Below are positions 997 to 17,594 of a stretch of DNA of 17,619 nt, piece by piece. Both the position numbers and the translations under genes were made by a program. The stretch's first letter is position 1. Each line of letters starts with the position of its first letter. Source of the DNA: Candidatus Thorarchaeota archaeon (lineage in GTDB: Archaea; Asgardarchaeota; Thorarchaeia; Thorarchaeales; Thorarchaeaceae); NCBI GenBank assembly GCA_016933575.1, contig JAFGAR010000169.1, positions 1 through 17,619 of the forward strand, read 5' to 3'. Under the pieces are notes generated by a model. It did not search any database, was not told the origin of the DNA, and worked only from the letters and a program-made list of their open reading frames with translations.

Positions 997-2628
997 TCAT
1001 GAATGTACGTTTTCAGATGCTGATTCCACTTCATGTCGTATTATCTCTTCACTAATGAATTGGCGAACAGCTGTCTTCAGATCCGCACTGACATACAAGC
1101 TCGGTGCCTTTTGGATATGTTCCCGTATCATCAAGATCGAACTCCTAGGAATGGAGAATGGCAAATATCGATTGATGAGGAAAAGAGCATCTTCGGATCC
1201 ATTGCCAGCTGCCTGCACCAAGCTCGACATGAAACTGCCGATAGGAATGAAGAAGGTATCTTGAATCGTCTTTAGAGAAGATGCGCCTTGAAGCGAAAGG
1301 TGTGACACTGTGCCACAGGTATAGTTGTCTATTGGTGCTGATGTTCCTCTACGTTGAATTGTCGATGGAACGGAGTCACTTTTTATCGCATTGATGGATT
1401 CGCGGACATCTATGATGCCTGTTCCTTCCTTCATTGGATCCAAACCAATGCTCTTTGCTGTTGACATGAATGCTCTCTTCACGAAATCCGGAAGCTCTCT
1501 CCCCCCGAATTCAAGCCCCTTCTCTTCAATAGCATTGAGTACGAGAGCGCAGGCCCCCGCTACATGAGGTGTTGCCATGCTTGTGCCCTGCATTCCAATG
1601 TGATATGGCTCAAAGGTGCATGTATTTCGATTGCATCTTCTTGATCTCAACGATATGATAGCACTTAGACACCCACCGCCACCGCCTCCCGGAGCAAGTA
1701 TGTCCGGTTTACATTGCATACCCAATACAGGGCCTTTTGAAGAGAAATCAGAGAGTGTTTTACTCTTTGTACAGGACCCAACTGTAAGAACACTCTCAAT
1801 GCATCCGGGACTCCCAACGGTCCCCCATCCCTGTCTGCCTTCATTTCCTGCAGCCACTACGCAGATGATTCCAGCAGATACGATCGCCTCCATGACATGA
1901 GCCAAAGTAGATGGTTCAGTGGTTTTTCCACCCAGGCTTGCATTGACGATCTGTGCTCCGTTATCTGCTAGCCACTTTGCACCTTTTGCTATAGTCGAAT
2001 CCCAAGAGGAGCCTCCATCATTTCCAAATATCTTTGCACTGATTAGCTTGGCTTTCGGTGCTACTCCCATATATTTAGAACCGCCACTCGCACATATTCC
2101 TGCGACATGTGTACCATGCCCACAGCCATCCTCTGTGCCTTCACCATCAATGAAACTTGTTTCATTGACAACCTGCAGCTCTGAAAACGAGCTATCAACA
2201 CCTGTATCAAGTATACCAATCGTTACACCCTTTCCTTGATATCCTTCATGCCATGCCTCTGGTGCGTGTATCTGACCCACGGATACATTGAGGCAGTGGA
2301 ACATTGGTATGTCAAGTGATGCTGAAGATGCTTTGCTATTCCCAACGAGTTGGGGCACTTCTGGAAGATATTTAGCTTCCATCTGAACTGAGACCCGACT
2401 CATTCCTTCGATGATTACCGCATCCCTTCCAACATCTCCCAGAGGGCTGGAACGTAATCCTGTTGACTCTATTGCAGATTGTGTCTTTTGGTCATGAAGA
2501 CCACCTGAATAATCGATTCTCTCTGCAACTCTGCTGCCACTGAATGCTATGGACACAATTGTTTCTGGATAGTCCTTTGAGAGCGCAGACGCTGCTCGTC
2601 TGATTAATTGGATCCCAATATTATTCAT
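997..2628 (-). CDS. S8 (subtilisin-family) serine protease with N-terminal pro-region and C-terminal extension, no signal peptide
   Basis: Intact triad motifs IGILDTG (Asp codon 2206-2208), GHGTHVAG (His 2116-2118) and GTSMATPHVAG (Ser 1579-1581), plus oxyanion AAGNEG and FSSKGP...KPDILAPG. The ORF track starts at 2712. I prefer the ATG at 2628 (MNNIG..., 543 aa), which lies 4 nt after the upstream stop and follows AAGGGGGA. Confidence 0.93.
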   Translation of the reverse strand: MNNIGIQLIRRAASALSKDYPETIVSIAFSGSRVAERIDYSGGLHDQKTQSAIESTGLRSSPLGDVGRDAVIIEGMSRVSVQMEAKYLPEVPQLVGNSKASSASLDIPMFHCLNVSVGQIHAPEAWHEGYQGKGVTIGILDTGVDSSFSELQVVNETSFIDGEGTEDGCGHGTHVAGICASGGSKYMGVAPKAKLISAKIFGNDGGSSWDSTIAKGAKWLADNGAQIVNASLGGKTTEPSTLAHVMEAIVSAGIICVVAAGNEGRQGWGTVGSPGCIESVLTVGSCTKSKTLSDFSSKGPVLGMQCKPDILAPGGGGGGCLSAIISLRSRRCNRNTCTFEPYHIGMQGTSMATPHVAGACALVLNAIEEKGLEFGGRELPDFVKRAFMSTAKSIGLDPMKEGTGIIDVRESINAIKSDSVPSTIQRRGTSAPIDNYTCGTVSHLSLQGASSLKTIQDTFFIPIGSFMSSLVQAAGNGSEDALFLINRYLPFSIPRSSILMIREHIQKAPSLYVSADLKTAVRQFISEEIIRHEVESASENVHS

Positions 2629-2632
2629 GAAA

Positions 2633-2965
2633 TCAAATTCCCCCTTGATGCTCGATGCGAGATATGTGTTTGATTTCTTTGACAAAGCTCTGTTTGCTAA
2701 GATCTCTGACAATATCTGGATGCGCCTTGGCGAAGATAATTGGTAATGTGATCTTACCTTCTCTGGTCAGATAGTCATCAATATTCTGAAGTCCTAGTTT
2801 CGTCATTTCTATCTTGATATCATCGAGTTCTGATTGAGTCTTGTAGTCCAAGGTGATCGATAGTCCAATCAACATGTCTACAGCATCAGTATCTATAGCT
2901 TCTAGACTCTTTAGAATCGATTGCAATGTGGAGTCTATTTTTGAGTCTGATTTCAACTTCTTCAT
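2633..2965 (-). CDS. Small stand-alone protein resembling a subtilisin propeptide / inhibitor I9 domain
   Basis: 110 aa. Its ATG abuts the upstream TAG (2966) and it ends 4 nt before the protease ATG. The C-terminal IIFAKAHPDIVRDLSKQSFVKEIK follows the strand-helix-'VK.I' pattern of S8 propeptides. The CDS is well supported; the function is inferred. Confidence 0.65.
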   Translation of the reverse strand: MKKLKSDSKIDSTLQSILKSLEAIDTDAVDMLIGLSITLDYKTQSELDDIKIEMTKLGLQNIDDYLTREGKITLPIIFAKAHPDIVRDLSKQSFVKEIKHISRIEHQGGI

Positions 2966-3808
2966 CTATCCTGGAATTAGTCTATTATTCTCGAGGCTTA
3001 GTTTCAGTGGAAAATCGGCAAAGAAATGACGATAGGCTCTCAGAGTGACTATCAACAACTCTGGGGGTATCTCCTCAATATCCACAGATTCCATGGATTC
3101 AACAGCCTGAGCAATTCTTGATTCTATTGCATCAGCATGCCTGGAATACTTATCCCAAAATGCAACTCGATCTGATAAGACATCATCGGGAGTTACTGAT
3201 TCTGACAACTTTTCGATCAAGTCATCCAAGGTATTTTGAAGCTTCCCTGTATATCTTCCATTGAGCTTGAGAGCTGATAGTTTCTTTATGATTTGGGATT
3301 CTGATGTAGCCGCATCCTCAATTCCAGATTCATCTGAGCCTTCTTGTATGCTCCTTTCTAATGCATAGGATCCATTCGAGAGCTTGATAATATCTGGAGC
3401 TTTCTGACCTAATTGATACGAATTTATGCACTCATCATAGTATTTGTTCAGTAAATCTATAATCTGTTTGTCTGTTTCGCTGTTCCGTAGTCGATCTATT
3501 CGATCAACGACCTCACCAATTCTTAGGACTCTATCAGCTTCCTCCAAGGCAGGTAGGAGCATCGCATTGATGCTGCCAATATTCTCAAGAATTTTCTTCT
3601 CATTCGTTTCTTTTTGTAAATCATCGATTTTTTTCAGGATGAGTCCAAGAGCATCAACCTCAGTAATCCGTGAACCCTCAGATGAGAAGTAGTTCTTGAT
3701 TGGTCTTAGGTGGTTCTTGTGATACCAATACCATAGATTGCTTTGACTGGAAAGATCTGCTCTTGCCTTTTCTACCCTCTCTTTAAGTAAGAGCAGTTCC
3801 ATCTTCAA
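2966..3808 (-). CDS. Hypothetical all-helical protein with an acidic linker and a MIM1-like helix
   Basis: 280-aa ORF in the operon. A strong SD (GGAGGTGA) precedes TTG 3808, with an alternative ATG at 3802. No catalytic motif recognised. Confidence 0.8.
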   Translation of the reverse strand: MKMELLLLKERVEKARADLSSQSNLWYWYHKNHLRPIKNYFSSEGSRITEVDALGLILKKIDDLQKETNEKKILENIGSINAMLLPALEEADRVLRIGEVVDRIDRLRNSETDKQIIDLLNKYYDECINSYQLGQKAPDIIKLSNGSYALERSIQEGSDESGIEDAATSESQIIKKLSALKLNGRYTGKLQNTLDDLIEKLSESVTPDDVLSDRVAFWDKYSRHADAIESRIAQAVESMESVDIEEIPPELLIVTLRAYRHFFADFPLKLSLENNRLIPG

Positions 3809-3828
3809 TCTCTCACCTCCAACATATA

Positions 3829-4488
3829 TTAGGCTTCATCTTCGAAGCTAATCTTTGTGTCCTCTTTTTCGTCTCTCTTCGCTGGAGTTCCCTTGGATTT
3901 CCTGTATGCATCAAGCTTCTTTTGCCAATCAGGATGTAATTTTGCGCCTCTTGCCTCCAAACGGATGAGATGATCAATTGATGGTTCTTTGCTTTCGCTC
4001 CTAGATGGCACCGAGCTTATTATAGGTGTCACACCTCTTGCAGCTTTGTACTGCTGACGAGCTTCACTGAGTATCTCTCCAACCTTGGCTCTGTCTGCCA
4101 ATGTTTTTCCGGTCTTCTTCAGCTGATCCTTTACAATAGTCATTATCTCTCCGTCTTTAGCTCCTAGTCTTTTTTCGATGACCTTGATATCTCTTTCACT
4201 TTCCTTGATGTAGCGCTCTGTAACCAGCACAGCTTTGTTTTGTTCTAATCTATCGATAGTGTCTTCCAATTCAGGTGGGGGAAGAATTCCCTTCATCGTG
4301 TAGTCGTTTATCTCTTTCAATGCTAGGTCAATCTCGTGTTGAACTTGGGCAATGGATTTTGATAAGAAATGGATCTCATCTGCATGCCTTAGTATTACAT
4401 CATTAGCTTCTTCACAACGTTTACGAATCTCTTTGTCTTTGAAATCATCACAGTCCATAGTTCTGTCTAACATTCTTTCACTTCCCAC
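3829..4488 (-). CDS. Hypothetical coiled-coil protein, possibly a second divergent ESCRT-III/PspA-like subunit
   Basis: 219 aa. The GTG start overlaps the ATPase stop by 1 nt (TAGTG). Two long heptad-like helices are joined by KGILPPPE, followed by a disordered charged tail. Confidence 0.75.
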   Translation of the reverse strand: MGSERMLDRTMDCDDFKDKEIRKRCEEANDVILRHADEIHFLSKSIAQVQHEIDLALKEINDYTMKGILPPPELEDTIDRLEQNKAVLVTERYIKESERDIKVIEKRLGAKDGEIMTIVKDQLKKTGKTLADRAKVGEILSEARQQYKAARGVTPIISSVPSRSESKEPSIDHLIRLEARGAKLHPDWQKKLDAYRKSKGTPAKRDEKEDTKISFEDEA

Positions 4489-5651
4489 TAATTTGTCTTC
4501 ATTGACGCATGTGTCTTTGCGAACTTGTCATATCGTTTCTTCATTTCAGGAGTTACTGTTGGCTTTATTTTATGTATGGCATCCTTGAAATGTTTCATAG
4601 TGATGGGCAAGTCCGTTACCCCTTTCTTGTCCTGTTCTCTCACAACCGACTTCTTTGTGATTGTACAAATTTCAGTAATTGCAGCTGAGCTGTATTCGTA
4701 CCCTCCGACTGGCCTTGTCATTGTAACTAGATCATTGTAATCCACGCCCTCAATTTTATTGCCTCGTAGCCCGATTTTGAACACCTCTTTTCTGGCTGCA
4801 TCATCTGGAGCTCCAACATAGATGATCTGTGATACTCTACCTGGTCTGATCAATGCTGGGTTTATGTTCTCAGGCTCATTAGTAGCTGCAATAAAGATGC
4901 TCTGTTGCTCATGGCCACTGAACCCATCCAATTGGGTGAGAAACTCATTTGTCGTTCGTGTCATTACTTGCGTTGAGTCCGATCTTGATGATTCGGATAG
5001 TAGTTTGTCAATCTCATCAACGAACAGAATTGATGGAGCTAATTTCCTTGCACAGACGAATGACTTCTCTGCTTTCTTTTCCGTAGCGCCAACCAGTGAT
5101 TCAAGTAGCTGACTAGCTGAAACGATTACTGCCGGTAGACCGAATTCGCCTGCCAAGCATTTGACAAGATATGTTTTGCCACACCCTGGAGGTCCGAACA
5201 ATAGAATTCCTGTCTGAGATGGGATACCTCTTCTCTTGAACTCATCTGGATATTTCAATGGCAACTCGATTGCATCCCGGAGTTCCATTTTCACTTGTTC
5301 CATACCAGCGAGGTCATCAAAACAGAATTTCGAGAATTCGACATATCCACCTGACTCCTTGCAAATATCTGGGATTTCCTTTGACCGTTGAAATCGGTCA
5401 ATCTCGATGGAATCAAATTCATCTCCTTCTTGTATTTGCGCACTACCAGATATCTCATTCATGATTTTGAGAATTTTCTTCATTATATTCTGCGCTACCA
5501 CTCTTTGCTCGGAGTTAGCTGATTTGGCATAGATTTTCAAAGCACCAATAGCGCGCTGATAGTGCATCCTTGCAAGTTGCTTGTTACCTTTCTTCCTAGC
5601 AGCATCGCCAAGCTTCTTCTCTTCCACTGCCTTTTGATATGCCGTACTCAT
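4488..5651 (-). CDS. MIT-domain single-ring AAA+ ATPase (Vps4/CdvC-like architecture)
   Basis: N-terminal three-helix MIT-like segment (AYQKAVEE...GNKQLARMHYQRAIGAL), Walker A GPPGCGKT, Walker B ILFVDEID, sensor-1 AATNEP, arginine finger ALIRPGR and a Vps4_C-like tail (HFKDAIHKIKPTVTPEMKKRYDKF); 387 aa. Confidence 0.9.
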   Translation of the reverse strand: MSTAYQKAVEEKKLGDAARKKGNKQLARMHYQRAIGALKIYAKSANSEQRVVAQNIMKKILKIMNEISGSAQIQEGDEFDSIEIDRFQRSKEIPDICKESGGYVEFSKFCFDDLAGMEQVKMELRDAIELPLKYPDEFKRRGIPSQTGILLFGPPGCGKTYLVKCLAGEFGLPAVIVSASQLLESLVGATEKKAEKSFVCARKLAPSILFVDEIDKLLSESSRSDSTQVMTRTTNEFLTQLDGFSGHEQQSIFIAATNEPENINPALIRPGRVSQIIYVGAPDDAARKEVFKIGLRGNKIEGVDYNDLVTMTRPVGGYEYSSAAITEICTITKKSVVREQDKKGVTDLPITMKHFKDAIHKIKPTVTPEMKKRYDKFAKTHASMKTN

Positions 5652-6353: not shown

Positions 6354-6594
6354 TTACCTGCATTGTAGAGAATGAGAAACATCCTGCTAATCTTCTATCC
6401 TATGTAGAATCATCATTACACCGACATCTCCTCATTCCCTAAGTGCACAGCTTACAAATACAAGACAACAAAATAAATCCTACTAGTGGATATTTGTTGC
6501 AACAGAAATAGTCCAGATATAACAGGAATCGTTATTATAGACCGATTTCATAGAATACTAGCGGTAGTTGTTCCACTAGAGAGGTGTGCGGTGT

Positions 6595-10555: not shown

Positions 10556-13500
10556 TCAGTGCTCTCCCTCCTTCGGATGCTCTAGTTTTCGTGCAGTCTT
10601 ATCTATACATTCTTCCAGTGGTCCTCTCATATCCTTAGGATACGCACCTGCAGTCCTTCTGACCACTTCATGGTAATTGTCGAATCTTCCATCACTGAGC
10701 AATTTGCATGTCTCTTCGAAATACTTGCAGAGATTTGGAATCTCCTTTGTCAGTTCCTCTCTTTGGATTTTTCTCCGCCAGTTGTGCACAGTGATTTCTC
10801 CTGTTGTTCTCAGCGTTTCAATAGTGAAATCCAGACATTTGGCAGGTTCTGTGAATTCCTCTTCCCTTTCTCTCATTATGCTTATCATCTCTCGAAGAAG
10901 AACTATGAGATGTGCGTATCCAGCTATATCTAACGTTTCTTTTTTCAAAGATGAAAGAGAACTATAAATCTCCGAGAGCCAAAATCCTTTCCCAATTTGG
11001 GGATGCAATCTAGGATCCCTTATCAGCTTCTCAAGACTATCAATGACATATCCATCCTGATTTTGACGTCGTAGCAATTTTGAAACTGCGTCTAAGGTAT
11101 GATCATGGAGAGGATTGATGTCCAACATCAAATTGACATAGTCTTGAATGATTGCAAGAACTTTCTCCTTCTCCGCCTTTTGAGTTATAGCGCTCAACGA
11201 ACTGAGATATACCTCCTTTCTATCAGCGGCAAGGTCTTGAACAAATCTGGAGGTCCAATCAATAGACTCCGTTTCCACGAGAACATCAGTGTATATTTCC
11301 ATAATACTGCATAACGTATCGGTAGGTAGAGGAATTTTCCTTATTTCTGAAGTTTCTAGTATGTCTCTGAGGATTCTTGCCTTATCCAGCGGACTATTCT
11401 TTGGATTCTCAAGAAATGATTGGATGACAAGCCTCCCAGCATCTGGAATACTCTCCTTTGGAATATCTTTTATGGTGTCCCGTAGATCCCTCCAAATTTC
11501 CTCACTTCCTTGCCTTTCTATTCTAATACTATCTTTTATTTTAAAGTAGATATGCAGAGCTTTGCCAGGTTCATTTTTGATGCATCTATTGAAGACCTGT
11601 TTTAGCTGCTGTCCAATCTCATGTTTGTAAAGATTAGATGTCTCTTTCCTATCTCTAATCTTGATTAGCCAATCGACTGTGAAATCGAAGCCCCATATTT
11701 CTGAAGTAGACTCGACCAAATTCTCAAGATTCATATCTCTGCTACTTTCAGTCAAAGGAACGATGTACTTGTTCAATTGCTTGAAGTATTGTTCTCTGAA
11801 ATCTTCTGTCAGTCGCTGTTCATCATTAATGGCATCAGTCAGACTGGATAGATATCGTAATGCGAGATGTATCTGTTCTCCTTGAAAATGAGTGCTTTTA
11901 GTGAATTCGAAAATTCTCTTATTTCCTTTCCAAGAATCAGCATTCTCTCTAAGTAGCTTGATTGTAAATGCTATTTCATTTGAATCTCCTATCTCAAGCA
12001 TTCTGAGCAGATATGTTTCTAGAAGAGCATCCCAATTTTGAATTTCAATCGCCTTCGAGTTATGAATTCCAATTGTGTACACAAGCCATTTCAACAATGT
12101 TTCCGAGTCCTTCCCGAAGAATCTGATCAGTGCTTCAGAATCAGTTTGCATTGCTTTCCCAAGATACTTGGGATTGGCTTCGGTCATGAACGATGATAGT
12201 GTGAGTAATAGACTGTAAATGATATTTGCTGATACATGTTCGAATAACTTCTCTCCTTCTTCCATGAAATATTTCCATGATACGATCAGAGTGGATTTCA
12301 ACACTCTTTCTTTAATTACCTCATCCAGTTTTGGATATCTACTCTTTAGTTCTCCAAGTGCCTTCTCGAATCCGTCCACATTTGCTTCAGTAAGCATATT
12401 GAGTGGAGATACTATACTGACAATTGATTCTGTGTTATTTGTTGAGAGGGATTTCAATGATACTAATAACATCTCGTAATTCTTGGGATTTGGAGTATTG
12501 ATGTATTGCTGAACAGCGAGTAACTCAAAATTCGCCAACCAACTATCTGGAGCATTTACCTTAGTAGTTATGATTGGTGATAGATATGACGAATATTCTA
12601 GAAACAAGAAAGGCTTTTCGAGAGATGATAGTGTTTTTTCAGCTACAGCGAGTACATAACTGGGATTATCAGAATTCGATTCAACGAGGAGATTCAAAGC
12701 AGGACCTAAAAAGGATGGGATTCCTGTTTCCAGATAATATAATGCAATCTCCATGAATATCTCTGACACATTCCGGATTTCTTTGAGTCCTTCTGGATGC
12801 TTCTGTGCTATGTCTAGTATTTCATTTGAGAATCTTTCTAATGCTGATGTTCTTACACTTTCGTGTTTCTTGACATGCTTCTCTAGGTTATTCAGGAGAC
12901 TCGCACTATGATTTAACAAGGCTTTGAGTTGCTTCTCGCTGTCCGTCGTCCGAAGTCTTGTGCTGATGAAAGCCAAGGCAATATCATATTGCTTATTTCC
13001 TAACAGCGTTGAACTTACCAAATCGAAGATGGAGTCTGACAGCTCGTCTGGGTAGTTAGTGAAAAAGGAATCAAATATTGGAAAACCATACTTTTCAATA
13101 GCATTCCGATTGTCTGAATATGCGATCTTTTCAAGCGATTGTTCCGCTGAGCTTCTTGGATTATCTAGTATCCTAGCATCCAAAATTCGGGTCATGTATT
13201 CACTCAGTACTTCTAGATCTGGATCTCGTGAACCAATATTCCGAATAAGATTCGATGTTGTTTGGTTAATGATTTCGAGTGTATTCGAATGATAGGTTCC
13301 TCCTAACAAATCTGCTACGATACCTGCGATTCTTTGCCATTCTGATGTTGTTTTTGCTTTGTTAGTGAGGATTCTAAGCTGAGTATTTCCTATTTCAGTT
13401 ACTATCTCAGGAAGTGATGCAATTTCACGCAATCTCTCTAGACTCTTCATATCATCTGTATCAATGAATTGATGTAGGAGACATTCAGAATAGAGTCTTA

Positions 13501-14977
13501 TTGTATTGTCCTGAAAAAGTCCGTTCTCATTCTCAGCAACCTCCCATGCCAATTCCTGAAACACATTCTTTGGAATTGCATCATTCAGCACTCCGATCGT
13601 ATCCATAAGATATTCATCACTCAGTACAAAATCGGCTTGTTCCAAAATAATTCTAGATATCGTAAGTGTTTCATTCATCTCCAGTTTTCTATCATGTTCA
13701 AGAATAAGCCTAATGATACTCTCCTCCATTCCTTCTCTATCCAACAGGAGCGGATGGAATTGCTCTTGCGAAAAGAGGTCCTGAATGATAGTTTGACAAG
13801 TGTCAAGGTAATCGATTGATGCTTCTGAGGAAGCTAACTCAAGAATCTTCTGCACAACAATATAGTATCTCTCGATATCAAGTGTCACCAGCACCCGTGA
13901 GTATCCCTTAAGCAGTGCTTGATGTTTCATCTTAATGAAACTGTCACAGCAATCAGCTGCTTCCAAGAATTTGATCAGCGCTCCGATGGGCGTTCGTTCT
14001 CCAATTTCATTAGCTTCTTCTAGTAGTTCTAAAGCCCTGACGTAATTGTTGATTTCAATTGTCACATTTTGATCATTGATTCCTGCTTCCTCAAAGGCTT
14101 GTTCAATTCTTTTGATTAGAGAAATAGCATCAAATATGGATTGATTCAGCATCTTTAGGAGCATACTTGAGAACGTGGCGTACTTGACATTCAATTTGGA
14201 GTTAGGTCTTGTTAGATCTAATACAGGTGTGGCGGGAGGGAGGCTCATCTCTAGACGACTGTAATTTGCCTGAGGTGTGATCAGTAAATTATAGAATTTT
14301 GATTCTATGTTATAGTCCATACAAAAGGTGTGCAATCCGATTTGGAATCTTATCGGGGCTGGAATCAGCTCGAGAATGATCTCTCCTAAGGTATCAGTGT
14401 CTCTATTATCGTCTGTGACAACTAACACTTGATTACCCTGAAGCAGGCCCTCTATCACATCAACAATCTGCTCGTTTCGAATACCTTCGCTGACAATCTT
14501 TGATGCAAGCTCAGAAGACATTTCAGAAATGATTGATTGTCCTTCCTCGCCCATTCTTTTACTGTACTTATCGATAATCTCTGAGAGGTCGATCGGAGGA
14601 AGTCCTTGATCTGCAATTCTCCTGCTTTCAGCTAGGTCTGCGTTTCGAATGAACGATTGTCGCAAATAGTATGGATTTCCACCCAACTTCTGATACTGGT
14701 TCTTCTTCATAAGAATCGTATGTGCGAAAAGCCGATTTGGTCGGTTGTCCTCATCAACCCCCGCGTTGAAGATATAGGTGATTGCCATTTGAGAATCTGG
14801 AACTTCATATGCAGTCATTGCATCAGTGAAGGTTATCTCCGGTGGGATTTGTCTTCGCAGAGAAGATCTTACAGCCACTAAATCTTGAATAGACTTTCTA
14901 ACACCGGTTTCTGCTATGATTTGAGCACCAGTACTTCTCGCGGTTTTGATTGATGTATAGGCGATTTGATCTATCAC
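10556..14977 (-). CDS. GTPase-associated protein 1 (GAP1-N2-like N-terminus, DENN-like middle) fused to a long alpha-solenoid
   Basis: N-terminal QIAYTS...GAQIIAETG and DEDNRPNRLFAHTILM match the GAP1-N2 pattern as I recall it (QLYYTS...G.Q...D..GR.GNFFAH). About 1200 aa of Leu/Glu/Ile-rich helical repeats follow. The ORF track starts at 15031. I prefer GTG 14977 (MIDQIAYTS, 1473 aa), which follows GGGGAGG plus 9 nt just after the upstream stop. Confidence 0.8.
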   Translation of the reverse strand: MIDQIAYTSIKTARSTGAQIIAETGVRKSIQDLVAVRSSLRRQIPPEITFTDAMTAYEVPDSQMAITYIFNAGVDEDNRPNRLFAHTILMKKNQYQKLGGNPYYLRQSFIRNADLAESRRIADQGLPPIDLSEIIDKYSKRMGEEGQSIISEMSSELASKIVSEGIRNEQIVDVIEGLLQGNQVLVVTDDNRDTDTLGEIILELIPAPIRFQIGLHTFCMDYNIESKFYNLLITPQANYSRLEMSLPPATPVLDLTRPNSKLNVKYATFSSMLLKMLNQSIFDAISLIKRIEQAFEEAGINDQNVTIEINNYVRALELLEEANEIGERTPIGALIKFLEAADCCDSFIKMKHQALLKGYSRVLVTLDIERYYIVVQKILELASSEASIDYLDTCQTIIQDLFSQEQFHPLLLDREGMEESIIRLILEHDRKLEMNETLTISRIILEQADFVLSDEYLMDTIGVLNDAIPKNVFQELAWEVAENENGLFQDNTIRLYSECLLHQFIDTDDMKSLERLREIASLPEIVTEIGNTQLRILTNKAKTTSEWQRIAGIVADLLGGTYHSNTLEIINQTTSNLIRNIGSRDPDLEVLSEYMTRILDARILDNPRSSAEQSLEKIAYSDNRNAIEKYGFPIFDSFFTNYPDELSDSIFDLVSSTLLGNKQYDIALAFISTRLRTTDSEKQLKALLNHSASLLNNLEKHVKKHESVRTSALERFSNEILDIAQKHPEGLKEIRNVSEIFMEIALYYLETGIPSFLGPALNLLVESNSDNPSYVLAVAEKTLSSLEKPFLFLEYSSYLSPIITTKVNAPDSWLANFELLAVQQYINTPNPKNYEMLLVSLKSLSTNNTESIVSIVSPLNMLTEANVDGFEKALGELKSRYPKLDEVIKERVLKSTLIVSWKYFMEEGEKLFEHVSANIIYSLLLTLSSFMTEANPKYLGKAMQTDSEALIRFFGKDSETLLKWLVYTIGIHNSKAIEIQNWDALLETYLLRMLEIGDSNEIAFTIKLLRENADSWKGNKRIFEFTKSTHFQGEQIHLALRYLSSLTDAINDEQRLTEDFREQYFKQLNKYIVPLTESSRDMNLENLVESTSEIWGFDFTVDWLIKIRDRKETSNLYKHEIGQQLKQVFNRCIKNEPGKALHIYFKIKDSIRIERQGSEEIWRDLRDTIKDIPKESIPDAGRLVIQSFLENPKNSPLDKARILRDILETSEIRKIPLPTDTLCSIMEIYTDVLVETESIDWTSRFVQDLAADRKEVYLSSLSAITQKAEKEKVLAIIQDYVNLMLDINPLHDHTLDAVSKLLRRQNQDGYVIDSLEKLIRDPRLHPQIGKGFWLSEIYSSLSSLKKETLDIAGYAHLIVLLREMISIMREREEEFTEPAKCLDFTIETLRTTGEITVHNWRRKIQREELTKEIPNLCKYFEETCKLLSDGRFDNYHEVVRRTAGAYPKDMRGPLEECIDKTARKLEHPKEGEH

Positions 14978-14996
14978 TTCATACTGCCTCCCCAAA

Positions 14997-15893
14997 TCAG
15001 AATGGACCCGAATCTGAAACCCACCCATCATGGTCTATTGGTGTTTCATAGAGATGCATTCCACCTCTGCTGCCTCCGTGTCGGTAGAATGGTTGATTCT
15101 CACTTTCAAGGCGTTGAAACCATATCAGTGGTTCAACGACATTCTTTGGCGCAAGTTCCTTCTTGCATCCCATTCCCTTCTTTTCTCTACCCATAACCCA
15201 TCTGAAGCCCCCGAGGGATGAAATCGGGAAGGTGACAAAACGTGTTCCTAGATGGGCTTTCAATCGTGTTATCAAATCACTGGAATGCTTGAAGAGGTAG
15301 GGATACGTATTATTGACATGTGGAAATGCATCTGATTTTGTAATAAGAAGTGCCACAGCTAGTTTACTCCAATCATCCCCATGAATTTCTTCTAGGGTCC
15401 TAACGATATTCTTTAGAAAAATGGTTTGATTATATCCATCCGCCTTGATGTCTGGATCCCAAAAGAAGATGAAATTCTGCGAAGATTTCATAAGATCCAA
15501 GATGAGCGAATCTTCCATTTTCAATTGAGTTTCATTCTCGTTTCTCAGGTACGCTCGAAGATTTCTGTAATCAGTTCTGAATAGTTGTTCGAGGTCTTCT
15601 CCCGAAGCATCCTTTGTCGAAACCCTCAGGACGTTTCTACCAGTGTGATCCTTCACCAGCATCCCCGCATCGTAAAGGTTACTCCGAAGTGTGGGATCTA
15701 GAAAACCATTCTCTTTTAGCTTCGTTAATTGATCCTTATAGTACATCTCAGAGTCATCACCTTTTGGAAAACTTACCAAGTAGTTTTGATATCGATAGTC
15801 CTCTGTCAATGAATAGTACAGAGCAATCAGATAGGTCGATTTTCCACTTGCAGGTGTGCCTAGAATGCAGACACTATCACTCCTAACCGCCAT
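14997..15893 (-). CDS. TRAFAC-class small GTPase (DO-GTPase-like), copy 3
   Basis: G1 GTPASGKST, G2 LDPT, G3 DASGE, G4 ITKSD, G5-like ISS and C-terminal LAPKNVVEPLIWF. Start taken as ATG 15893 (298 aa) after GGGGAG, overlapping the upstream gene by 11 nt; the ORF track gives 15971. Confidence 0.88.
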   Translation of the reverse strand: MAVRSDSVCILGTPASGKSTYLIALYYSLTEDYRYQNYLVSFPKGDDSEMYYKDQLTKLKENGFLDPTLRSNLYDAGMLVKDHTGRNVLRVSTKDASGEDLEQLFRTDYRNLRAYLRNENETQLKMEDSLILDLMKSSQNFIFFWDPDIKADGYNQTIFLKNIVRTLEEIHGDDWSKLAVALLITKSDAFPHVNNTYPYLFKHSSDLITRLKAHLGTRFVTFPISSLGGFRWVMGREKKGMGCKKELAPKNVVEPLIWFQRLESENQPFYRHGGSRGGMHLYETPIDHDGWVSDSGPF

Positions 15894-16734
15894 TTTTCTT
15901 CTCCCCTTTCTTGCTATCCAATACGATCTTGATAACCCAGAAGAGAGTTTCAGCAACTCCCTTTGGTTCAATTGGTGGATTTGGTTTGTACTCTATCTTC
16001 ACTTCTTGTCCATTATTGGTCTTCACAATTCTGGTCTTACCTACTCCACTGCAATTCATGATTGCGTATGCACCTAGATTCTTTTCATGGATACCCATGG
16101 TCACATGAAGGACCTTTCTGGCATAATTATCAAAATCTGGGAATTTTTCCTGATAGAGATCCCATTGTGTGAAGACAAAAAGGATGGGTGGCATCTTTTT
16201 TGGAGAATCGATGTTCTTTCTACTAATTATCTCATCAATGACCTCAGCACACATTAGATCCTGAGATGTATCGAAAACCAGTCTTTCTGAATTAGTCAGA
16301 TTCCCTTTTGGATCAATGAGAAACATGAACACATTGGATTTGTCAATCAAGCTCACTATCTTTTCTACATAGGGCCGATAGGGATTAAGCTTTCTTCGAT
16401 GCCCATCATGCCAGATAACACCATGTAATCCGGGCATGAATAGATCAGCAATCATCTCCCCTGGAAGATCAATGGTCCGATACGTGACATGGCCTGAGTT
16501 GTCATGCTTGACGATGTCGAATATCACTTGGTCATCTGCGAAGGCCTGTGTCGATGATGGCCATTCTCCACTCTGAAGCTCAGCAACCCTGTCCTCGATG
16601 TAGTCCTCGACGCTCCGAAGGTAGTAGCTACGATTGTATCGTTTCTGGATCTCGTAGACCAAGGCTGCTGCGTAGACAGTCTTGCCCGATGCCTTTTGGC
16701 CGAACAATGCAAGGTCGATGTTGATAGCAGTCAA
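15883..16734 (-). CDS. TRAFAC-class small GTPase (DO-GTPase-like), copy 2
   Basis: G1 GQKASGKT, G2 WPSST, G3 DLPGE, variant G4 FTQWD and C-terminal PIEPKGVAETLFW. TTG start in a TTGA 4-nt overlap, with SD GAGGAG. Confidence 0.88.
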   Translation of the reverse strand: MTAINIDLALFGQKASGKTVYAAALVYEIQKRYNRSYYLRSVEDYIEDRVAELQSGEWPSSTQAFADDQVIFDIVKHDNSGHVTYRTIDLPGEMIADLFMPGLHGVIWHDGHRRKLNPYRPYVEKIVSLIDKSNVFMFLIDPKGNLTNSERLVFDTSQDLMCAEVIDEIISRKNIDSPKKMPPILFVFTQWDLYQEKFPDFDNYARKVLHVTMGIHEKNLGAYAIMNCSGVGKTRIVKTNNGQEVKIEYKPNPPIEPKGVAETLFWVIKIVLDSKKGEKKNGG

Positions 16735-17594
16735 TTGTTCTCCTCATCCCCCTCTCTACTTTCGTCCTTTTTCCTACTATTCACAGAACTGATTATCCAA
16801 AAGAGTGTCTCAGCTACTCCTCTTGGCTCGATTGGAGGATTCGGCTTGTATATTGTCTTTGACCCTGTTCCGTTTCTGATTCTCTCCAGCTTTGCCTTTC
16901 CTATGCCACTACAATTCATCAGTTCATATGAGCCTAAATTTCTGGCATGCGTCCCGAGTGTAAAATGGAGGACCCTTCTAGCGTAAGTTTCGAACTCCGT
17001 GTACCTATTCTCATAAAGGTCCCATTGCGTGAAGACAAAGAGGATGGGTGGCATGTGATTTGATGTAGTCACATTCTTCCTTCTGGTAATCTCATGAATT
17101 ATTTCCATGCACATCAAATCTTGAGCTATGTCCTCGCTTAGTTGCTCGTTCTCATCTTCGCATCCTTTGGGATTGATAAGGAACATGAACGCATTGGATT
17201 TGTCAATTAGATTGCAAATTCGTTCTACATACTCTCGATACGGCCTCTTGCTTCTGAGCTCTTCTTTTCTCCATACAACGCGGTTCTCGCCAGGAATGAA
17301 AAGACCCTCGATGATCTCACCGGGAAGATCGATGGTCCGATACGTGACATGGCTTGAGTTGTCATGCTTCACGATGTCGAACATCACCTGTTCGTCTGCG
17401 AAGACCTGTGTCGATGATGGCCATTCTCCTCTCTGAAGCTCGGCGATCCTATCCTCGATGTAGTCCTCGACATTACGAAGGTAGTAGCTACGATTGTATC
17501 GTTTCTGGATCTCGTAGACCAAGGCCGCTGCGTAGACCGTCTTTCCCGATGCCTTTTGGCCAAACAACGCCAGATCGATATCTATCGAAGTCAT
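16461..17594. repeat. Direct repeat: 5' ends of the two paralogous GTPase genes (16461-16734 vs 17321-17594, offset 860)
   Basis: Manual ungapped alignment gives about 30 mismatches in 274 nt (~89% identity), including a perfect 50-nt run (16616-16665 = 17476-17525). Confidence 0.92.
16731..17594 (-). CDS. TRAFAC-class small GTPase (DO-GTPase-like), copy 1
   Basis: 287-aa paralog of copy 2 with the same G1/G2/G3/TQWD motifs. The ATG is preceded by GGGAGAGTGA. Confidence 0.88.
   Translation of the reverse strand: MTSIDIDLALFGQKASGKTVYAAALVYEIQKRYNRSYYLRNVEDYIEDRIAELQRGEWPSSTQVFADEQVMFDIVKHDNSSHVTYRTIDLPGEIIEGLFIPGENRVVWRKEELRSKRPYREYVERICNLIDKSNAFMFLINPKGCEDENEQLSEDIAQDLMCMEIIHEITRRKNVTTSNHMPPILFVFTQWDLYENRYTEFETYARRVLHFTLGTHARNLGSYELMNCSGIGKAKLERIRNGTGSKTIYKPNPPIEPRGVAETLFWIISSVNSRKKDESREGDEENN

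What the first reader, a model, noticed from the sequence alone, without database searches (positions are those of the whole stretch)
997..17594. Candidate undescribed system: triple GTPase + GAP1/DENN-like scaffold + coat-like protein next to an ESCRT-III/Vps4-like module with a protease
Seen: 12 contiguous non-housekeeping genes in two tightly packed runs (overlaps or short gaps, at most ~30 nt within runs) flanking one membrane-protein gene. Known: GAP1 + DO-GTPase pairs define the GTPase-centred ternary conflict systems described mainly in multicellular bacteria (Kaur, Burroughs, Iyer & Aravind, eLife 2020), and ESCRT-III + MIT-AAA pairs remodel and cut membranes. Inference: both are combined here with a coat-like protein, a membrane anchor and a controlled protease. 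That could form a complete module (switch, exchange factor, coat, scission, proteolytic output) for trafficking or for infection-triggered defence or cell death. I do not know of a description of this combination.
Basis: partly seen in the sequence, partly recalled or inferred. Interest (0 to 1): 0.92.

Follow-up and report, generated by a model that had tools for sequence, protein, structure and literature searches.

The report
Asgard GTPase–GAP1 system with ESCRT-III/AAA/protease
A rare gene cluster in an Asgard archaeon joins a GTPase switch of a family proposed to serve in conflict systems to a divergent ESCRT-III-like protein, a Vps4-shaped AAA ATPase and a cytoplasmic protease; the same set recurs in five families of the phylum and has not been described.

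Summary
The window is a whole contig of an Asgard MAG from sediment, and it carries 12 tightly packed genes.

- **GTPases and GAP1.** There are three DO-GTPases, two of them recent duplicates. The 1491-aa protein has a GAP1-N2 N-terminus, shown through its homologues.
- **973-aa protein.** It has an FG-GAP propeller region, a middle region not examined here, a domain like an adaptin or COPI appendage, and a Zn ribbon.
- **Second run.** It encodes a divergent ESCRT-III-like protein, an AAA ATPase, two proteins of unknown family, a 110-aa protein and a cytoplasmic S8 subtilase. The ESCRT-III assignment rests on a profile chain to Snf7 (93% and 98%, or 88.6%, then 94.7%) and on CdvB/CHMP3 as the top fold matches. 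The AAA has Vps4 architecture but a Cdc48-type core.
- **Linkage.** The two runs lie together in 6 genomes of the 400 sampled from the phylum (5 families), plus four metagenome or MAG sources, in co-directional, convergent and divergent order. Protein identities are mostly 20–70%.
- **Variation.** The third component varies. One variant has a PLD-domain protein and no detected S8.
- **Distribution.** The cluster was not found in 26 other genomes of the genus.

Best reading: a new Asgard variant of the GAP1-N2 GTPase-centred conflict systems, with an ESCRT-III/AAA(/S8) output module. Function is inferred, not shown. The DENN-like idea is untested and the membrane anchor is weak.

The parts
17605..17619 (-). 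Last codons and stop of an upstream 212+ aa gene (p220 family, weakly SPFH/Band_7-like). The rest of the gene lies at the end of contig C152 of the same MAG.
   Evidence: A 22.5-kb contig from the source sample runs on from the window's right end. The end of C152 carries a 46%-identical homologue of L017 p220 with no stop codon. The family links to a Band_7 protein at phmmer 3.5e-7 and to Pfam Band_7 at E = 1.5e-3. That C152 and the window abut is inferred.
16731..17594 (-). DO-GTPase G1 (287 aa), G1/2 type. Walker A is GQKASGKT, Walker B is DLPGE, and the G4 motif is degenerate (FTQWD).
   Evidence: Pfam DO-GTPase1 scores 35.9 bits against a cut-off of 27. Orthologues occur in L017, L018, L038, L080, L099 and L100.
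15883..16734 (-). DO-GTPase G2 (283 aa), a tandem duplicate of G1. It overlaps G1 by 4 nt.
   Evidence: It is 67% identical to G1. Pfam DO-GTPase1 scores 26.6 bits, just under the cut-off. Other loci carry one copy here.
14997..15893 (-). DO-GTPase G3 (about 298 aa from M27; the ORF reaches 15971), the second paralogous type. Its G4 motif is canonical (ITKSD) and its Walker B is TKDASGE.
   Evidence: Pfam DO-GTPase1 scores 36.9 bits and DO-GTPase2 22.8 bits. The alignment with orthologues sets the start at M27. It is 67/32/31% identical to the L017/L018/L019 copies.
10556..15031 (-). GAP1-family protein (1491 aa; the start may be GTG at 14977). A GAP1-N2-type N-terminal region of about 330 aa is followed by about 1150 aa with no match above any Pfam cut-off.
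   Evidence: The protein's own GAP1-N2 match is weak (E = 0.04). Among 20 homologues in 1.8 billion representatives, several pass the GAP1-N2 cut-off and some show GAP1-M. The top protein-language-model feature hits are all GAP1-N2/GAP1-M clusters at 0.92. The conserved motifs YTS...GYQI...NAGxDxxGRPN are seen.
7602..10523 (-). Third component (973 aa). It has an FG-GAP-type beta-propeller region (about residues 1-375), a middle region (about 380-640) not examined here, a beta-sandwich plus alpha/beta subdomain like an adaptin/COPI appendage (about 645-900), and a C-terminal Cys4 Zn ribbon.
   Evidence: FG-GAP_3 is weak here but 29.3 bits in the L018 orthologue. Atlas structure neighbours are propellers. 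The AF2 model of residues 645-973 has pLDDT 81.6. Foldseek top hits are the COPI appendage 9qpq_H (7e-8), the AP2 alpha ear (2.6e-7) and the beta2 appendage (6e-7). VIA gives GAE domains Z 12.2 and BBS9 Z 11.3. The CxxC...CPxC motif is invariant.
6586..7599 (+). Conserved 337-aa protein of unknown family on the opposite strand, with an N-terminal hydrophobic or amphipathic segment that may act as a membrane anchor.
   Evidence: It is 40% identical to the gene in the same position in L038 and weakly similar to L018 p309. The Kyte-Doolittle peak is 1.79 in the window copy only. There is no Pfam match.
5672..6319 (-). Divergent ESCRT-III (Snf7-superfamily)-like protein (215 aa) with a basic N-terminus and an acidic C-terminus.
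   Evidence: It has no direct Pfam Snf7 hit. hhalign gives: p215 family vs the proteins upstream of orthologous AAAs 88.6% (E = 2.6e-6, 165 columns) and 93% (E = 3.5e-7, 176 columns); the second set (xB) vs the first 98.0%; and the first set vs 40 Asgard Snf7 94.7% (E = 6e-8). The AF2 model has a helical hairpin at 2-49/56-94. Top PDB matches are CdvB, CdvB2 and CHMP3, and an Asgard Snf7 cluster matches at TM 0.45.
4488..5651 (-). AAA+ ATPase (387 aa): an N-terminal helical region with a weak MIT/TPR-like match, one Cdc48-D2-type AAA domain, and a Vps4_C-like C-terminal helix. Walker A is GPPGCGKT and Walker B is FVDEID. Pore loop 1 is non-aromatic (SLVG).
   Evidence: Pfam AAA 126 bits and Vps4_C 23.9 bits against a cut-off of 21.3. 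It is colinear with NCBIfam CdvC over 17-380, but CDC48 scores higher. The best PDB sequence matches are p97/VAT D2. MIT is E = 0.14. Orthologues of about 400 aa occur in MAGs labelled Thor-, Odin- and Baldrarchaeota.
3829..4488 (-). Conserved 219-aa protein of unknown family that follows the AAA (start probably 4473).
   Evidence: It is 42% identical to the L038 copy. Profile links to the positional equivalents are weak: 34.5% and 47.9%. There is no support for Snf7 (10.5% or less).
2966..3808 (-). Conserved 280-aa acidic protein of unknown family.
   Evidence: Orthologues occur in L038 (43%), L019, L078 and L080 (20-22%; E = 3e-4 to 8e-9). The weak VPS28 hit (E = 0.015) was not reproduced in homologues.
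2633..2965 (-). Small 110-aa protein directly upstream of the protease. It could be an inhibitor or chaperone of the protease, but this was not tested.
   Evidence: Positional orthologues of 100-125 aa occur in L038, L019, L078, L080 and L084. hhalign to the L084 copy gives 77%. It is absent from the L099/L100 variant.
997..2628 (-). Cytoplasmic S8 subtilase (543 aa from ATG 2628). The Asp, His and Ser motifs are intact (DTGV, HGTHVAG, GTSMATPHVAG). It has no signal peptide and a conserved C-terminal extension of about 120 aa.
   Evidence: Pfam Peptidase_S8 scores 178.9 bits. The sequence is read. Orthologues are 29-51% identical in L038, L019, L078, L080 and L084. There is no N-terminal hydrophobic segment. 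It falls far below the IteS and mycosin cut-offs.

Best explanation
This is one multi-gene system. It is an Asgard-archaeal variant of the GAP1-N2-type, DO-GTPase-centred 'ternary' conflict systems of Kaur, Burroughs, Iyer and Aravind (eLife 2020).

**Conserved core.**
- Two paralogous DO-GTPases: the G1/2 type (duplicated in this window) and the G3 type.
- A giant GAP1-N2 protein.
- A fast-evolving third component. Here it is a protein with a propeller, an appendage-like domain and a Zn ribbon.

**Linked output module, specific to these Asgard systems.**
- One or two divergent ESCRT-III-like proteins.
- An AAA ATPase with Vps4 architecture but a Cdc48-type motor.
- Two proteins of unknown family.
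- In most variants, a small protein plus a cytoplasmic, catalytically intact S8 subtilase.

**Proposed mechanism (inferred, not shown).** The GTPase pair and GAP1 act as a nucleotide-dependent threshold switch. The variable third component supplies recognition of an invader or a damage signal. The switch then licenses assembly of the ESCRT-III-like polymer at the membrane. The AAA remodels or disassembles that polymer through its N-terminal domain, and may also unfold an inhibitor. The subtilase is then released to cleave cellular or invader targets. The outcome would be membrane repair or sealing, or growth arrest or death of the infected cell.

**What is shown.** Gene content, the family and fold assignments, and conserved linkage across families and gene orders.
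For: **Identity of the parts.**
- DO-GTPase1 above the Pfam cut-off, with a DxxGE Walker B.
- GAP1-N2 through homologues and protein-language-model features.
- ESCRT-III-like through the profile chain (88.6% or 93% and 98%, then 94.7%) and CdvB/CHMP3 as top fold matches.
- AAA with a Vps4_C match, colinear with CdvC.
- S8 with an intact triad.

**Linkage.**
- The complete gene order is conserved in L017+L038 at 23-71% identity.
- Convergent order: G349 (C118 plus C15, joined by inference at contig ends), JGI L018+L079/L078, and a MAG labelled Thorarchaeota, L080.
- Co-directional order: G029/L084.
- Divergent order: G116, G055 and G176.
- In total 6 of the 14 GAP1-N2-positive genomes among the 400 sampled from the phylum, in 5 families.

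**Conflict-system character.**
- The 973-aa family was found full-length in only 1 other of the 400 genomes. GAP1-N2 was found in 14 of 400 and in none of 26 other genomes of the genus.
- GAP1 (23%) and the third component diverge far faster than the AAA (71%) between the two closest loci.
- The third component is replaced by a bare propeller (L084), by unrelated 1107-aa proteins (L099/L100) or by a protein with a C-terminal PLD domain and no detected S8 (L103).
- Kaur et al. define such systems as a conserved regulatory pair plus variable effectors (PMC7159879).
- DO-GTPases also occur in some PspA (ESCRT-III superfamily) operons of Gammaproteobacteria (PMC11237479).
Against: - No experiment or expression data bears on function.
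- Several features of the published GAP1-N2 systems are missing. There is no FNIII-repeat protein. The window's three GTPases have the P-loop within about 20 residues of the inferred N-terminus, leaving no room for N-terminal Zn ribbons, and they show no TM segments.
- The window's own GAP1-N2 Pfam score is below the cut-off (14.4 vs 24 bits), so membership rests on transitive homology.
- The ESCRT-III assignment of p215 is indirect. Direct hhalign to Snf7 gives only 9-25%, and structural Z-scores of 11-12 are in the range helical proteins reach by chance.
- The ESCRT-III-like + AAA sub-module also occurs without GTPases or S8 (L081, L083, L085). It can therefore work alone, and the two runs might be separable systems.
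- No clear mobile-element genes or known defence genes flank the window (RidA at 179-559 only).
- The components are also homologues of eukaryotic trafficking parts, so a cell-biological role is not excluded.
Confidence: 0.62

Rival explanations
1. The cluster is an accessory membrane-trafficking or membrane-maintenance machine, not an immune system. The GTPases and GAP1 recruit a coat- or adaptor-like propeller-appendage protein to a membrane. The ESCRT-III-like polymer and the AAA carry out remodelling or scission, and the protease processes cargo or recycles the machinery.
For: - The 973-aa protein carries an appendage-like beta-sandwich plus platform (Foldseek E = 7e-8 to COPI/AP2 appendages) and a propeller, which are adaptor, coat and BBSome building blocks.
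- An ESCRT-III-like protein with a Vps4-shaped AAA is present.
- An SPFH/Band_7-like gene lies upstream, and a gene with a hydrophobic N-terminus lies inside the cluster.
- The host also has the canonical Asgard ESCRT locus, so paralogous specialisation is plausible.
- Makarova et al. 2024 report patchy, lineage-specific ESCRT-related multidomain proteins with adaptin-appendage regions in Asgard archaea.
Against: - The distribution is very patchy: no match in 26 other genomes of the genus, and 6 of the 400 sampled from the phylum.
- The 'coat' component is not conserved. It is swapped for unrelated proteins, including one with a PLD effector domain.
- GAP1 and the third component diverge rapidly.
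- A cytoplasmic broad-family S8 protease looks more like an effector than a trafficking part.
Confidence: 0.2
2. These are two independent systems that happen to lie together in a variable genomic island. One is a DO-GTPase/GAP1 system with its third component. The other is a self-contained ESCRT-III-like/AAA/S8 module, functionally akin to the AAA + S8 defence pair IetAS.
For: - The ESCRT-III-like + AAA core occurs without GTPases, GAP1 or S8 in L081/L082, L083 and L085.
- Short GAP1 + GTPase pairs occur without run B in six genomes of family f29.
- PADLOC IetA and IetS models match the AAA (E = 1e-29) and the S8 (E = 1.6e-15).
- The two runs are separate transcription units in most loci, being convergent or divergent.
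Against: - Adjacency is kept in 5 families and in three different relative orientations, at mostly 20-45% protein identity. Chance clustering in islands would not preserve this.
- The IetA/IetS similarity is generic. NCBIfam IteA scores 93.9 vs a cut-off of 510, and IteS 29.4 vs 900, while CDC48 scores 214.
- IetAS has no ESCRT-III-like partner.
Confidence: 0.13
3. The cluster is a contaminant or mis-binned fragment, for example viral or bacterial, and not part of the Asgard genome.
For: - The MAG has 6.9% contamination and 215 contigs.
- The window is a short stand-alone contig.
- GAP1-N2 systems are mostly bacterial.
Against: - GC content and tetranucleotide usage fit the MAG.
- Orthologous loci lie in other Asgard genomes, some on contigs of 34-55 kb, and in MAGs labelled Thorarchaeota.
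- The neighbouring contig C152 carries the FG-GAP/TSP3 giant proteins seen beside related loci in other Asgard MAGs.
- A RidA gene flanks both the window and L078.
Confidence: 0.03

Closest known systems
GAP1-N2-type DO-GTPase-centric ternary conflict systems (Kaur, Burroughs, Iyer & Aravind, eLife 2020; Pfam PF19975/PF19993, PF20013, PF20014)
   Same: - Two paralogous DO-GTPases with a Walker-B glutamate lie directly upstream of a GAP1 protein with a GAP1-N2 N-terminus.
- A third, rapidly varying component follows.
- The distribution is patchy.
- Effector-like domains vary (S8, PLD).
   Different: - The host is an Asgard archaeon; the paper reports 'a few archaea'.
- The window's GTPases have no N-terminal Zn ribbons or TM segments.
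- There is no FNIII-repeat protein. A protein with a propeller, an appendage-like domain and a Zn ribbon takes its place.
- GAP1 carries about 1150 extra residues.
- The linked 'theme' is ESCRT-III-like + AAA + S8, not the published tubulin, HSP70/GrpE or kinase/PP2C themes.
Archaeal ESCRT-III/Vps4 modules (CdvB-CdvC; Asgard ESCRT-III-Vps4-Vps25 locus)
   Same: - A Snf7-superfamily helical protein of about 200 aa lies directly upstream of an AAA ATPase of about 390 aa.
- The AAA has a helical N-domain and a Vps4_C-type C-terminal helix.
- CdvB, CdvB2 and CHMP3 are the best fold matches of p215.
   Different: - p215 does not hit Pfam Snf7 and is linked to it only transitively.
- The AAA core is Cdc48-D2-like with a non-aromatic pore loop.
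- The MIT match is only E = 0.14.
- No CdvA or ESCRT-I/II genes are present.
- The host keeps a separate canonical ESCRT locus on contig C131.
- The module is coupled to a protease and to a GTPase system.
IetAS anti-phage system (AAA ATPase IetA + S8 peptidase IetS)
   Same: An AAA ATPase and an S8 serine protease are encoded in one operon. PADLOC IetA and IetS models give matches.
   Different: - Scores are far below the NCBIfam equivalog cut-offs (93.9 vs 510; 29.4 vs 900), so the similarity is generic AAA/S8 similarity.
- Three genes separate the AAA from the S8 here.
- IetAS has no ESCRT-III-like, GTPase or GAP1 partners.
psp operons with a DO-GTPase in Gammaproteobacteria (Ravi et al., mSystems 2024, PMC11237479)
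   Same: A DO-GTPase family protein is encoded beside a member of the PspA/Snf7 (ESCRT-III) superfamily. The authors take this to point to membrane-stress functions.
   Different: - That case is bacterial PspA with PspF/B/C.
- No GAP1, AAA of this type, S8 protease or propeller-appendage protein is reported there.
Adaptor/coat appendage ('ear') domains (AP2 alpha and beta2, COPI beta and gamma, GGA GAE) and BBS2/7/9
   Same: - The order propeller, middle region, GAE-type beta-sandwich, alpha/beta platform resembles BBS2/7/9.
- The sandwich plus platform matches appendages at Foldseek E = 7e-8 to 1e-6, and GAE domains at Z 12.2 (rmsd 2.5 over 107 residues).
   Different: - There is no sequence similarity.
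- Two-domain superpositions have rmsd of about 12 A.
- Other Ig-like sandwiches (transglutaminase, CARDB/DUF11) score nearly as well for the first subdomain.
- BBS-named Pfam hits also ring on generic FG-GAP propellers.
- A C-terminal Zn ribbon is present, and no adaptin trunk is present.

Membership tests
GAP1-N2-type DO-GTPase-centric system (Kaur et al. 2020) | DO-GTPase family P-loop GTPase(s) with a conserved Walker-B glutamate, often as two paralogues | tested here: met
   Pfam DO-GTPase1 scores 36.9, 35.9 and 26.6 bits against a cut-off of 27. DxxGE is conserved in both types across loci. Two paralogous types are kept in L017, L018, L099, L100 and L103.
GAP1-N2-type DO-GTPase-centric system (Kaur et al. 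2020) | GAP1 protein with a GAP1-N2 domain encoded directly downstream of the GTPase | tested here: met
   The protein's own Pfam hit is sub-threshold (14.4 bits, E = 0.04, at the right position). Homologues P0003, P0006, P0007 and P0009 pass the cut-off (26.5-47 bits). The top protein-language-model hits are all GAP1-N2/M clusters. Membership is therefore met transitively.
GAP1-N2-type DO-GTPase-centric system (Kaur et al. 2020) | GAP1-M and GAP1-C domains | tested here: inconclusive
   GAP1-M appears only below the cut-off, in homologues P0005 (21.6 bits) and P0008 (19.5 bits). GAP1-C was not examined. The C-terminal 1150 aa have no match above any Pfam cut-off.
GAP1-N2-type DO-GTPase-centric system (Kaur et al. 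2020) | Third component with rapidly evolving FNIII repeats | tested here: not met
   No FNIII Pfam hit in the 973-aa protein or its orthologues. The protein instead has an FG-GAP propeller, an appendage-like sandwich and platform, and a Zn ribbon. The position and the rapid variation are kept.
GAP1-N2-type DO-GTPase-centric system (Kaur et al. 2020) | GTPase with N-terminal Zn ribbons and/or TM helices (usual in the GAP1-N2 type) | tested here: not met
   In the window's three GTPases the P-loop lies within about 20 residues of the inferred N-terminus. No TM candidate was found.
ESCRT-III / Snf7 superfamily (for the 215-aa protein) | Sequence match to the Snf7 family profile | tested here: inconclusive
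   There is no Pfam Snf7 hit at E <= 10. Direct hhalign to 40 Asgard Snf7 gives 9-25%. The transitive chain is stronger: p215 family to the upstream-of-AAA families at 88.6% (E = 2.6e-6) and 93% (E = 3.5e-7) over 165-176 columns, xB to the 'up' family at 98.0%, and the 'up' family to Snf7 at 94.7% (E = 6e-8).
ESCRT-III / Snf7 superfamily (for the 215-aa protein) | Fold: a long alpha1-alpha2 hairpin followed by shorter helices and an acidic tail | tested here: met
   The AF2 model (pLDDT 68.6) has helices at 2-49, 56-94, 109-121 and 123-188. The Foldseek top hit is CdvB 9s9k (E = 9.6e-3). VIA gives CdvB Z 12.4 and CHMP3 Z 11.0 (rmsd 3.0 over 122 residues). An Asgard Snf7 cluster matches at TM 0.45/0.46. 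Caveat: unrelated helical bundles reach Z of about 10-11.
ESCRT-III / Snf7 superfamily (for the 215-aa protein) | Genomic pairing with a Vps4-type AAA ATPase | tested here: met
   The gene lies directly upstream of the AAA in the window and in every orthologous locus read.
ESCRT-III / Snf7 superfamily (for the 215-aa protein) | A C-terminal MIM that binds the ATPase's MIT domain | not testable with these tools
   This needs a binding assay or a structure of the complex. See Tried and rejected for the one prediction job.
Vps4/CdvC AAA ATPase | N-terminal MIT domain | tested here: inconclusive
   Pfam MIT gives E = 0.14 over residues 6-62 against profile positions 2-59 of 66, with weak TPR hits. 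The NCBIfam CdvC model aligns from residue 17. The N-terminal sequence pattern is conserved in three orthologues. The domain was not folded.
Vps4/CdvC AAA ATPase | AAA core of the Vps4/katanin/spastin clade with an aromatic pore loop; the CdvC equivalog score | tested here: not met
   The CdvC model scores 158.7 bits against a cut-off of 650, while CDC48 scores 214 bits. The best PDB sequence matches are p97/VAT/Cdc48 D2. Pore loop 1 reads SLVG.
Vps4/CdvC AAA ATPase | Vps4_C C-terminal helix | tested here: met
   PF09336 scores 23.9 bits against a cut-off of 21.3, over residues 345-379.
IetAS defence system | IetA and IetS equivalog-level matches | tested here: not met
   NCBIfam IteA scores 93.9 vs 510 and IteS 29.4 vs 900. 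The PADLOC matches are generic AAA/S8 matches.
Adaptin/COPI appendage (ear) fold (973-aa protein, residues 645-900) | GAE-type beta-sandwich followed by an alpha/beta platform subdomain | tested here: met
   The model has pLDDT 81.6. Foldseek gives E = 7e-8 to 3e-6 to COPI, AP2 alpha and beta2 appendages over about 260 columns. VIA gives GAE Z 12.2 (rmsd 2.5 over 107 residues), and two-domain alignments of 196-215 residues at Z 11-11.6 with rmsd of about 12. This is fold level only; there is no sequence evidence of homology.

The most novel reading that the evidence does not exclude
The cluster is a GTPase-regulated proto-coat machine of Asgard archaea. On this reading the giant GAP1 protein and the propeller-appendage protein form an adaptor- or BBSome-like scaffold. 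The DO-GTPase pair recruits this scaffold to membranes, and a dedicated ESCRT-III/AAA pair deforms or cuts the membrane, with proteolytic control. It would be a prokaryotic relative, or an independent prototype, of eukaryotic GTPase + coat + scission logic. It could have arisen in a conflict system and later supplied parts such as the appendage domain to the eukaryotic endomembrane system.
Probability: 0.1. Interest if true: 0.95.

Novelty: new variant of a known kind. Interest (0 to 1): 0.72.

Why it matters
- **Taxonomic reach.** DO-GTPase/GAP1 systems were described almost only in bacteria, and their mechanism is untested. Here they are found in the archaeal phylum closest to eukaryotes.
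- **A defined output module.** In these Asgard systems the GTPase switch is tied to an ESCRT-III-like protein, a Vps4-shaped AAA ATPase and usually a protease. This gives a concrete hypothesis to test: a GTPase switch controls an ESCRT-III-type polymer and a protease.
- **A second ESCRT-III/AAA lineage.** Asgard genomes hold a divergent ESCRT-III/AAA lineage besides the canonical one. The canonical-family profiles tried here did not detect the window's members (no Pfam Snf7 match for p215; the AAA scores far below the CdvC cut-off).
- **An appendage-like fold.** The system includes a protein with an adaptin/COPI-appendage-like fold. This bears on whether parts of the eukaryotic trafficking toolkit circulated in prokaryotic conflict systems.
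- **Tractable size.** At 13 genes in about 18 kb, the system is small enough for heterologous reconstitution.

Tried and rejected
- **Structure prediction of AAA N-domain (1-75) with p215 C-terminal half (125-215).** No verdict: score 0.22 against a mark of 0.32, and controls were not run. This says nothing either way.
- **The search for related loci with the 973-aa alignment in genome contigs.** It picked generic FG-GAP patterns and returned only a Bacteroidales propeller. With the GAP1-N alignment it found no usable pattern. With the G3 alignment in metagenome contigs it found nothing.
- **Word-based homologue search of the 1491-aa protein.** It found only the protein itself. The exhaustive search was needed.
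- **Direct sequence tests of p215.** The search against PDB sequences gave only chance L22 hits. Pfam at E <= 10 gave nothing relevant. Direct hhalign to Snf7 gave only 9-25%.
- **p219 as a second ESCRT-III.** Not supported: 10.5% or less to Snf7 or to the Snf7-like families.
- **Vps28 reading of the 280-aa protein.** The hit at E = 0.015 was not reproduced in two orthologues, so I treat it as chance.
- **'BBSome-like' label for the propeller.** BBS2_Mid and Beta-prop_BBS7 also ring on generic FG-GAP propellers. The label is not specific.
- **Atlas shape search with the 973-aa C-terminal model.** Only weak, mixed rows: coatomer beta and CARDB/DUF11 sandwiches.
- **IetAS membership.** Rejected on scores.
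- **Expression.** No RNA holder is listed, and two metatranscriptome runs from the same study gave no contig on the window. This is no evidence on expression.
- **RNA genes.** Rfam and tRNA scans of the window found nothing.
- **Not tested for lack of folding jobs.** The DENN-like idea for GAP1, an I9-propeptide-like role for the 110-aa protein, and the fold of the AAA N-domain.

Full report
**What the window is.** The 17,619-base window is the whole of contig C160 of a 3.47-Mb MAG (215 contigs, 85.5% complete, 6.9% contamination). The source is a sediment metagenome. Its GC content (41.8%) and tetranucleotide usage (r = 0.97 to the genome mean) fit the MAG.

The host carries the canonical Asgard ESCRT locus on contig C131: a Vps28-like match, Vps25, a Vps4-like AAA and Snf7. 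A second Snf7 lies on C5. Of 41 sampled genomes of the phylum, 37 have a Snf7 match, nearly all with two copies. Relatives of the window's proteins are labelled Thorarchaeota or Promethearchaeota. I therefore take the host to be an Asgard archaeon, probably thorarchaeal.

**Check of the observation.** Within runs the genes overlap by up to 35 nt or are separated by up to 32 nt. The one plus-strand gene (6586-7599) sits between the runs. Orthologue alignments refine several starts: S8 at ATG 2628, G3 at M27, coordinate 15893, p219 probably at 4473, and GAP1 possibly at 14977.

The cluster also continues beyond the window. A 22.5-kb contig from the source sample runs on from the right end. MAG contig C152 (22,472 nt) ends in an open gene that is 46% identical to the gene upstream of the GTPases in L017. 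This p220 family is weakly SPFH/Band_7-like.

**Run A.**
- *GTPases.* G1, G2 and G3 match Pfam DO-GTPase1 at 35.9, 26.6 and 36.9 bits against a cut-off of 27. G1 and G2 are 67% identical tandem duplicates. Other loci have one gene of that type plus one of the G3 type, so the conserved state is a pair of paralogues, as Kaur et al. describe for 'double GTPases'. Both types keep GxxxxGK[ST] and DxxGE. In the window's G1 and G2 the G4 lysine is lost (TQWD), but it is present in most orthologues (TKWD, SKWD, TKSD).
- *GAP1.* The 1491-aa protein has only a sub-threshold GAP1-N2 hit of its own (E = 0.04). An exhaustive search of 1.8 billion representatives found 20 relatives, one of them full-length at 25% identity. 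All ten relatives scanned carry GAP1-N2, four above the cut-off, and two show sub-threshold GAP1-M. Protein-language-model neighbours are all GAP1-N2/M clusters. I accept it as a GAP1-N2 protein with about 1150 extra residues that match no Pfam family above cut-off.
- *Third component.* The 973-aa protein has an FG-GAP-type propeller region. An AF2 model of residues 645-973 (pLDDT 81.6) shows a beta-sandwich, an alpha/beta subdomain and a Zn ribbon. Its best Foldseek matches are COPI and AP2 appendage domains (E = 7e-8 to 3e-6 over about 260 columns), then the gamma-COP appendage, GAE domains and BBS9. VIA gives GAE domains Z 12.2 (rmsd 2.5 over 107 residues) and two-domain alignments at Z 11-11.6. 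Other Ig-like sandwiches follow closely at Z 10.4. The appendage-like fold is therefore supported at the level of shape only.

**Run B.**
- *AAA.* The 387-aa ATPase has one AAA domain (126 bits) and a Vps4_C match above cut-off. It is colinear with the CdvC model from residue 17. Its core, however, is closest to Cdc48/p97 D2, its pore loop is non-aromatic, and its N-terminal domain matches MIT only at E = 0.14. It is shaped like Vps4 but is not a Vps4 orthologue.
- *p215.* The 215-aa protein upstream has no direct Snf7 match. The equivalent proteins upstream of orthologous AAAs in four loci match a profile of 40 Asgard Snf7 proteins at 94.7% (E = 6e-8). The p215 family matches that set at 88.6% (E = 2.6e-6, 165 columns). 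It matches a second such set (xB, from L099/L100) at 93% (E = 3.5e-7, 176 columns), and xB matches the first set at 98.0%. The AF2 model has the long hairpin. CdvB, CdvB2 and CHMP3 head both structural rankings, and an Asgard Snf7 cluster is among the Atlas shape matches. I accept p215 as a divergent ESCRT-III-superfamily protein, with moderate confidence.
- *p219, p280 and p110.* These are conserved but of unknown family. The tests for Snf7 (p219) and Vps28 (p280) were negative or not reproduced.
- *S8.* The subtilase has an intact triad, no signal peptide and a conserved C-terminal extension.

1. *L017+L038* (one sample). The two contigs break inside the 973-aa gene. Together they reproduce the whole order, including the opposite-strand gene, at 23% (GAP1) to 71% (AAA) identity.
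2. *G349*, same family but another genus. Contig C118 has G3, GAP1 and a 980-aa gene facing S8, p125, p315 and p184, and then ends. Contig C15 begins with the truncated AAA (44% identical) preceded by a p215-like gene. The join between these contigs is inferred.
3. *JGI L018 and L079/L078.* These show the same convergent layout.
4. *L080*, a MAG labelled Thorarchaeota, shows it on one contig.
5. *G029 (= L084)*, another family. The order is GTPase, a GAP1-like protein of 1013 aa, a bare 405-aa propeller, an opposite-strand gene, a Snf7-like gene, AAA, 218, 269, 115, S8 and a second Snf7-like gene.
6. *G116, G055 and G176*, three further families. The GTPase-GTPase-GAP1-third-component run is divergent from two Snf7-like genes and the AAA. 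S8 follows in G116 and G055.

In all, 6 of the 14 GAP1-N2-positive genomes among the 400 sampled from the phylum, in 5 families, have the ESCRT-III-like/AAA module next to the GTPase/GAP1 genes, in three relative orientations.

The parts are also separable. Six genomes of one family have only a short GAP1 plus one GTPase. The Snf7-like + AAA core occurs without GTPases or S8 in L081-L083 and L085.

**Function.** Several features fit the conflict-system logic of Kaur et al..
- The distribution is very patchy. The 1491-aa protein was not found in 24 other genomes of the genus, and the GAP1-N profile matched none of 26. The 973-aa family was found full-length in one other genome of the 400.
- GAP1 and the third component diverge much faster than the AAA.
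- The third component is replaced by unrelated proteins. In G176 it is a 1331-aa protein with a C-terminal PLD domain (59 bits), and no S8 was detected.

That paper lists tubulin, HSP70/GrpE and kinase/PP2C themes for GAP1-N2 systems. It has no ESCRT, Vps4 or subtilisin theme. The 2024 ESCRT survey of Makarova et al. mentions no protease-linked ESCRT module, and its GTPase mentions do not concern one. The nearest precedent is a DO-GTPase in some gammaproteobacterial psp operons.

I propose the following sequence, none of which is shown. A GTPase/GAP1 switch is set by the variable third component. It licenses assembly of the ESCRT-III-like polymer at the membrane. The AAA remodels the polymer, or unfolds an inhibitor, and the S8 protease is released. 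A cell-biological membrane role remains possible, at about 0.2.

**Verdict.** The compositional reading is largely right. The DENN-like exchange-factor idea and the function remain untested, and the membrane-anchor idea has only weak support. The system is a new variant, a new 'theme' in a new lineage, of a known kind of system.

Noticed in passing
G000 contig C152:10000-22472 (L102), abutting the window's right end: Upstream of the SPFH-like p220 gene, on the other strand, lie proteins of 360, 1014 and 1556 aa with FG-GAP, SBBP, PQQ-like propeller and TSP3 repeats. Similar FG-GAP/TSP3 proteins sit beside the related AAA/Snf7-like clusters in L081 and beside L103, and in G347:C15 next to a 1199-aa protein that shares the 973-aa protein's C-terminal region. 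I cannot tell whether they belong to the system.
   Followed up: partly
L103 (G176:C516:11500-31499): In this variant the protein after GAP1 is 1331 aa with a C-terminal PLD-like domain (PLDc_2, 59 bits). No S8 gene was detected after the AAA. This looks like an effector swap within the same framework.
   Followed up: partly
L081/L082, L083, L085: Orthologues of the AAA (37-38% identical) with recognisable Snf7-like genes upstream occur without DO-GTPase, GAP1 or S8. In L081 and L083 they sit with FG-GAP propeller proteins; an nSTAND3-TPR gene is nearby in L081 and a TPR gene in L083. In L085 a Band_7 protein is present. A wider, undescribed Asgard ESCRT-III/AAA paralogue family seems to exist, whose Snf7-like members carry no precomputed Pfam family in these contig records.
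   Followed up: partly
L105-L109 (G316-G321, one family of the phylum): These genomes have minimal two-gene versions: a short GAP1-N2-like protein of 327-358 aa directly after a single GTPase of about 231-244 aa. No ESCRT-III-like, AAA or S8 gene was seen in the region read.
   Followed up: no
window 15883-17594: G1 and G2 read FTQWD where orthologues mostly read [TS]KWD or TKSD/TKTD. The G4 lysine is lost in both recent duplicates (and is Met in L018), while G3 keeps ITKSD.
   Followed up: partly
window 4488-5651: Pore loop 1 of the AAA lacks the usual aromatic residue (LLESLVGATEK). Pfam AAA_lid_3 is not among the families matched at E <= 0.01 (best 14 listed), although the core is Cdc48-like.
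   Followed up: no
window 179-559 (minus strand): A RidA/Ribonuc_L-PSP gene (155.8 bits) flanks the cluster. A RidA gene also lies about 8 kb from run B in L078/L079, next to an MNT/HepT toxin-antitoxin pair and a PadR gene. This may be remnant synteny among related genomes.
   Followed up: no
window 1-40: The first 40 bases of the window are also found, reverse-complemented, at position 3657 of the 3907-nt MAG contig C182. This may be an assembly-graph overlap that shows the left neighbour.
   Followed up: no
L018:1-5642: In the JGI locus a tubulin-family gene, an 856-aa gene and a WD40 propeller gene lie a few kb upstream of the GTPase run. Tubulin is the commonest 'theme' of bacterial GAP1-N2 systems, but I did not test whether it is linked here.
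   Followed up: no
L038:8681-9511 and L080:931-1782: Extra G1/2-type DO-GTPase genes sit on the far side of run B, convergent after S8 in L038 and upstream of the p215-like gene in L080. GTPase genes therefore bracket run B in some loci.
   Followed up: no
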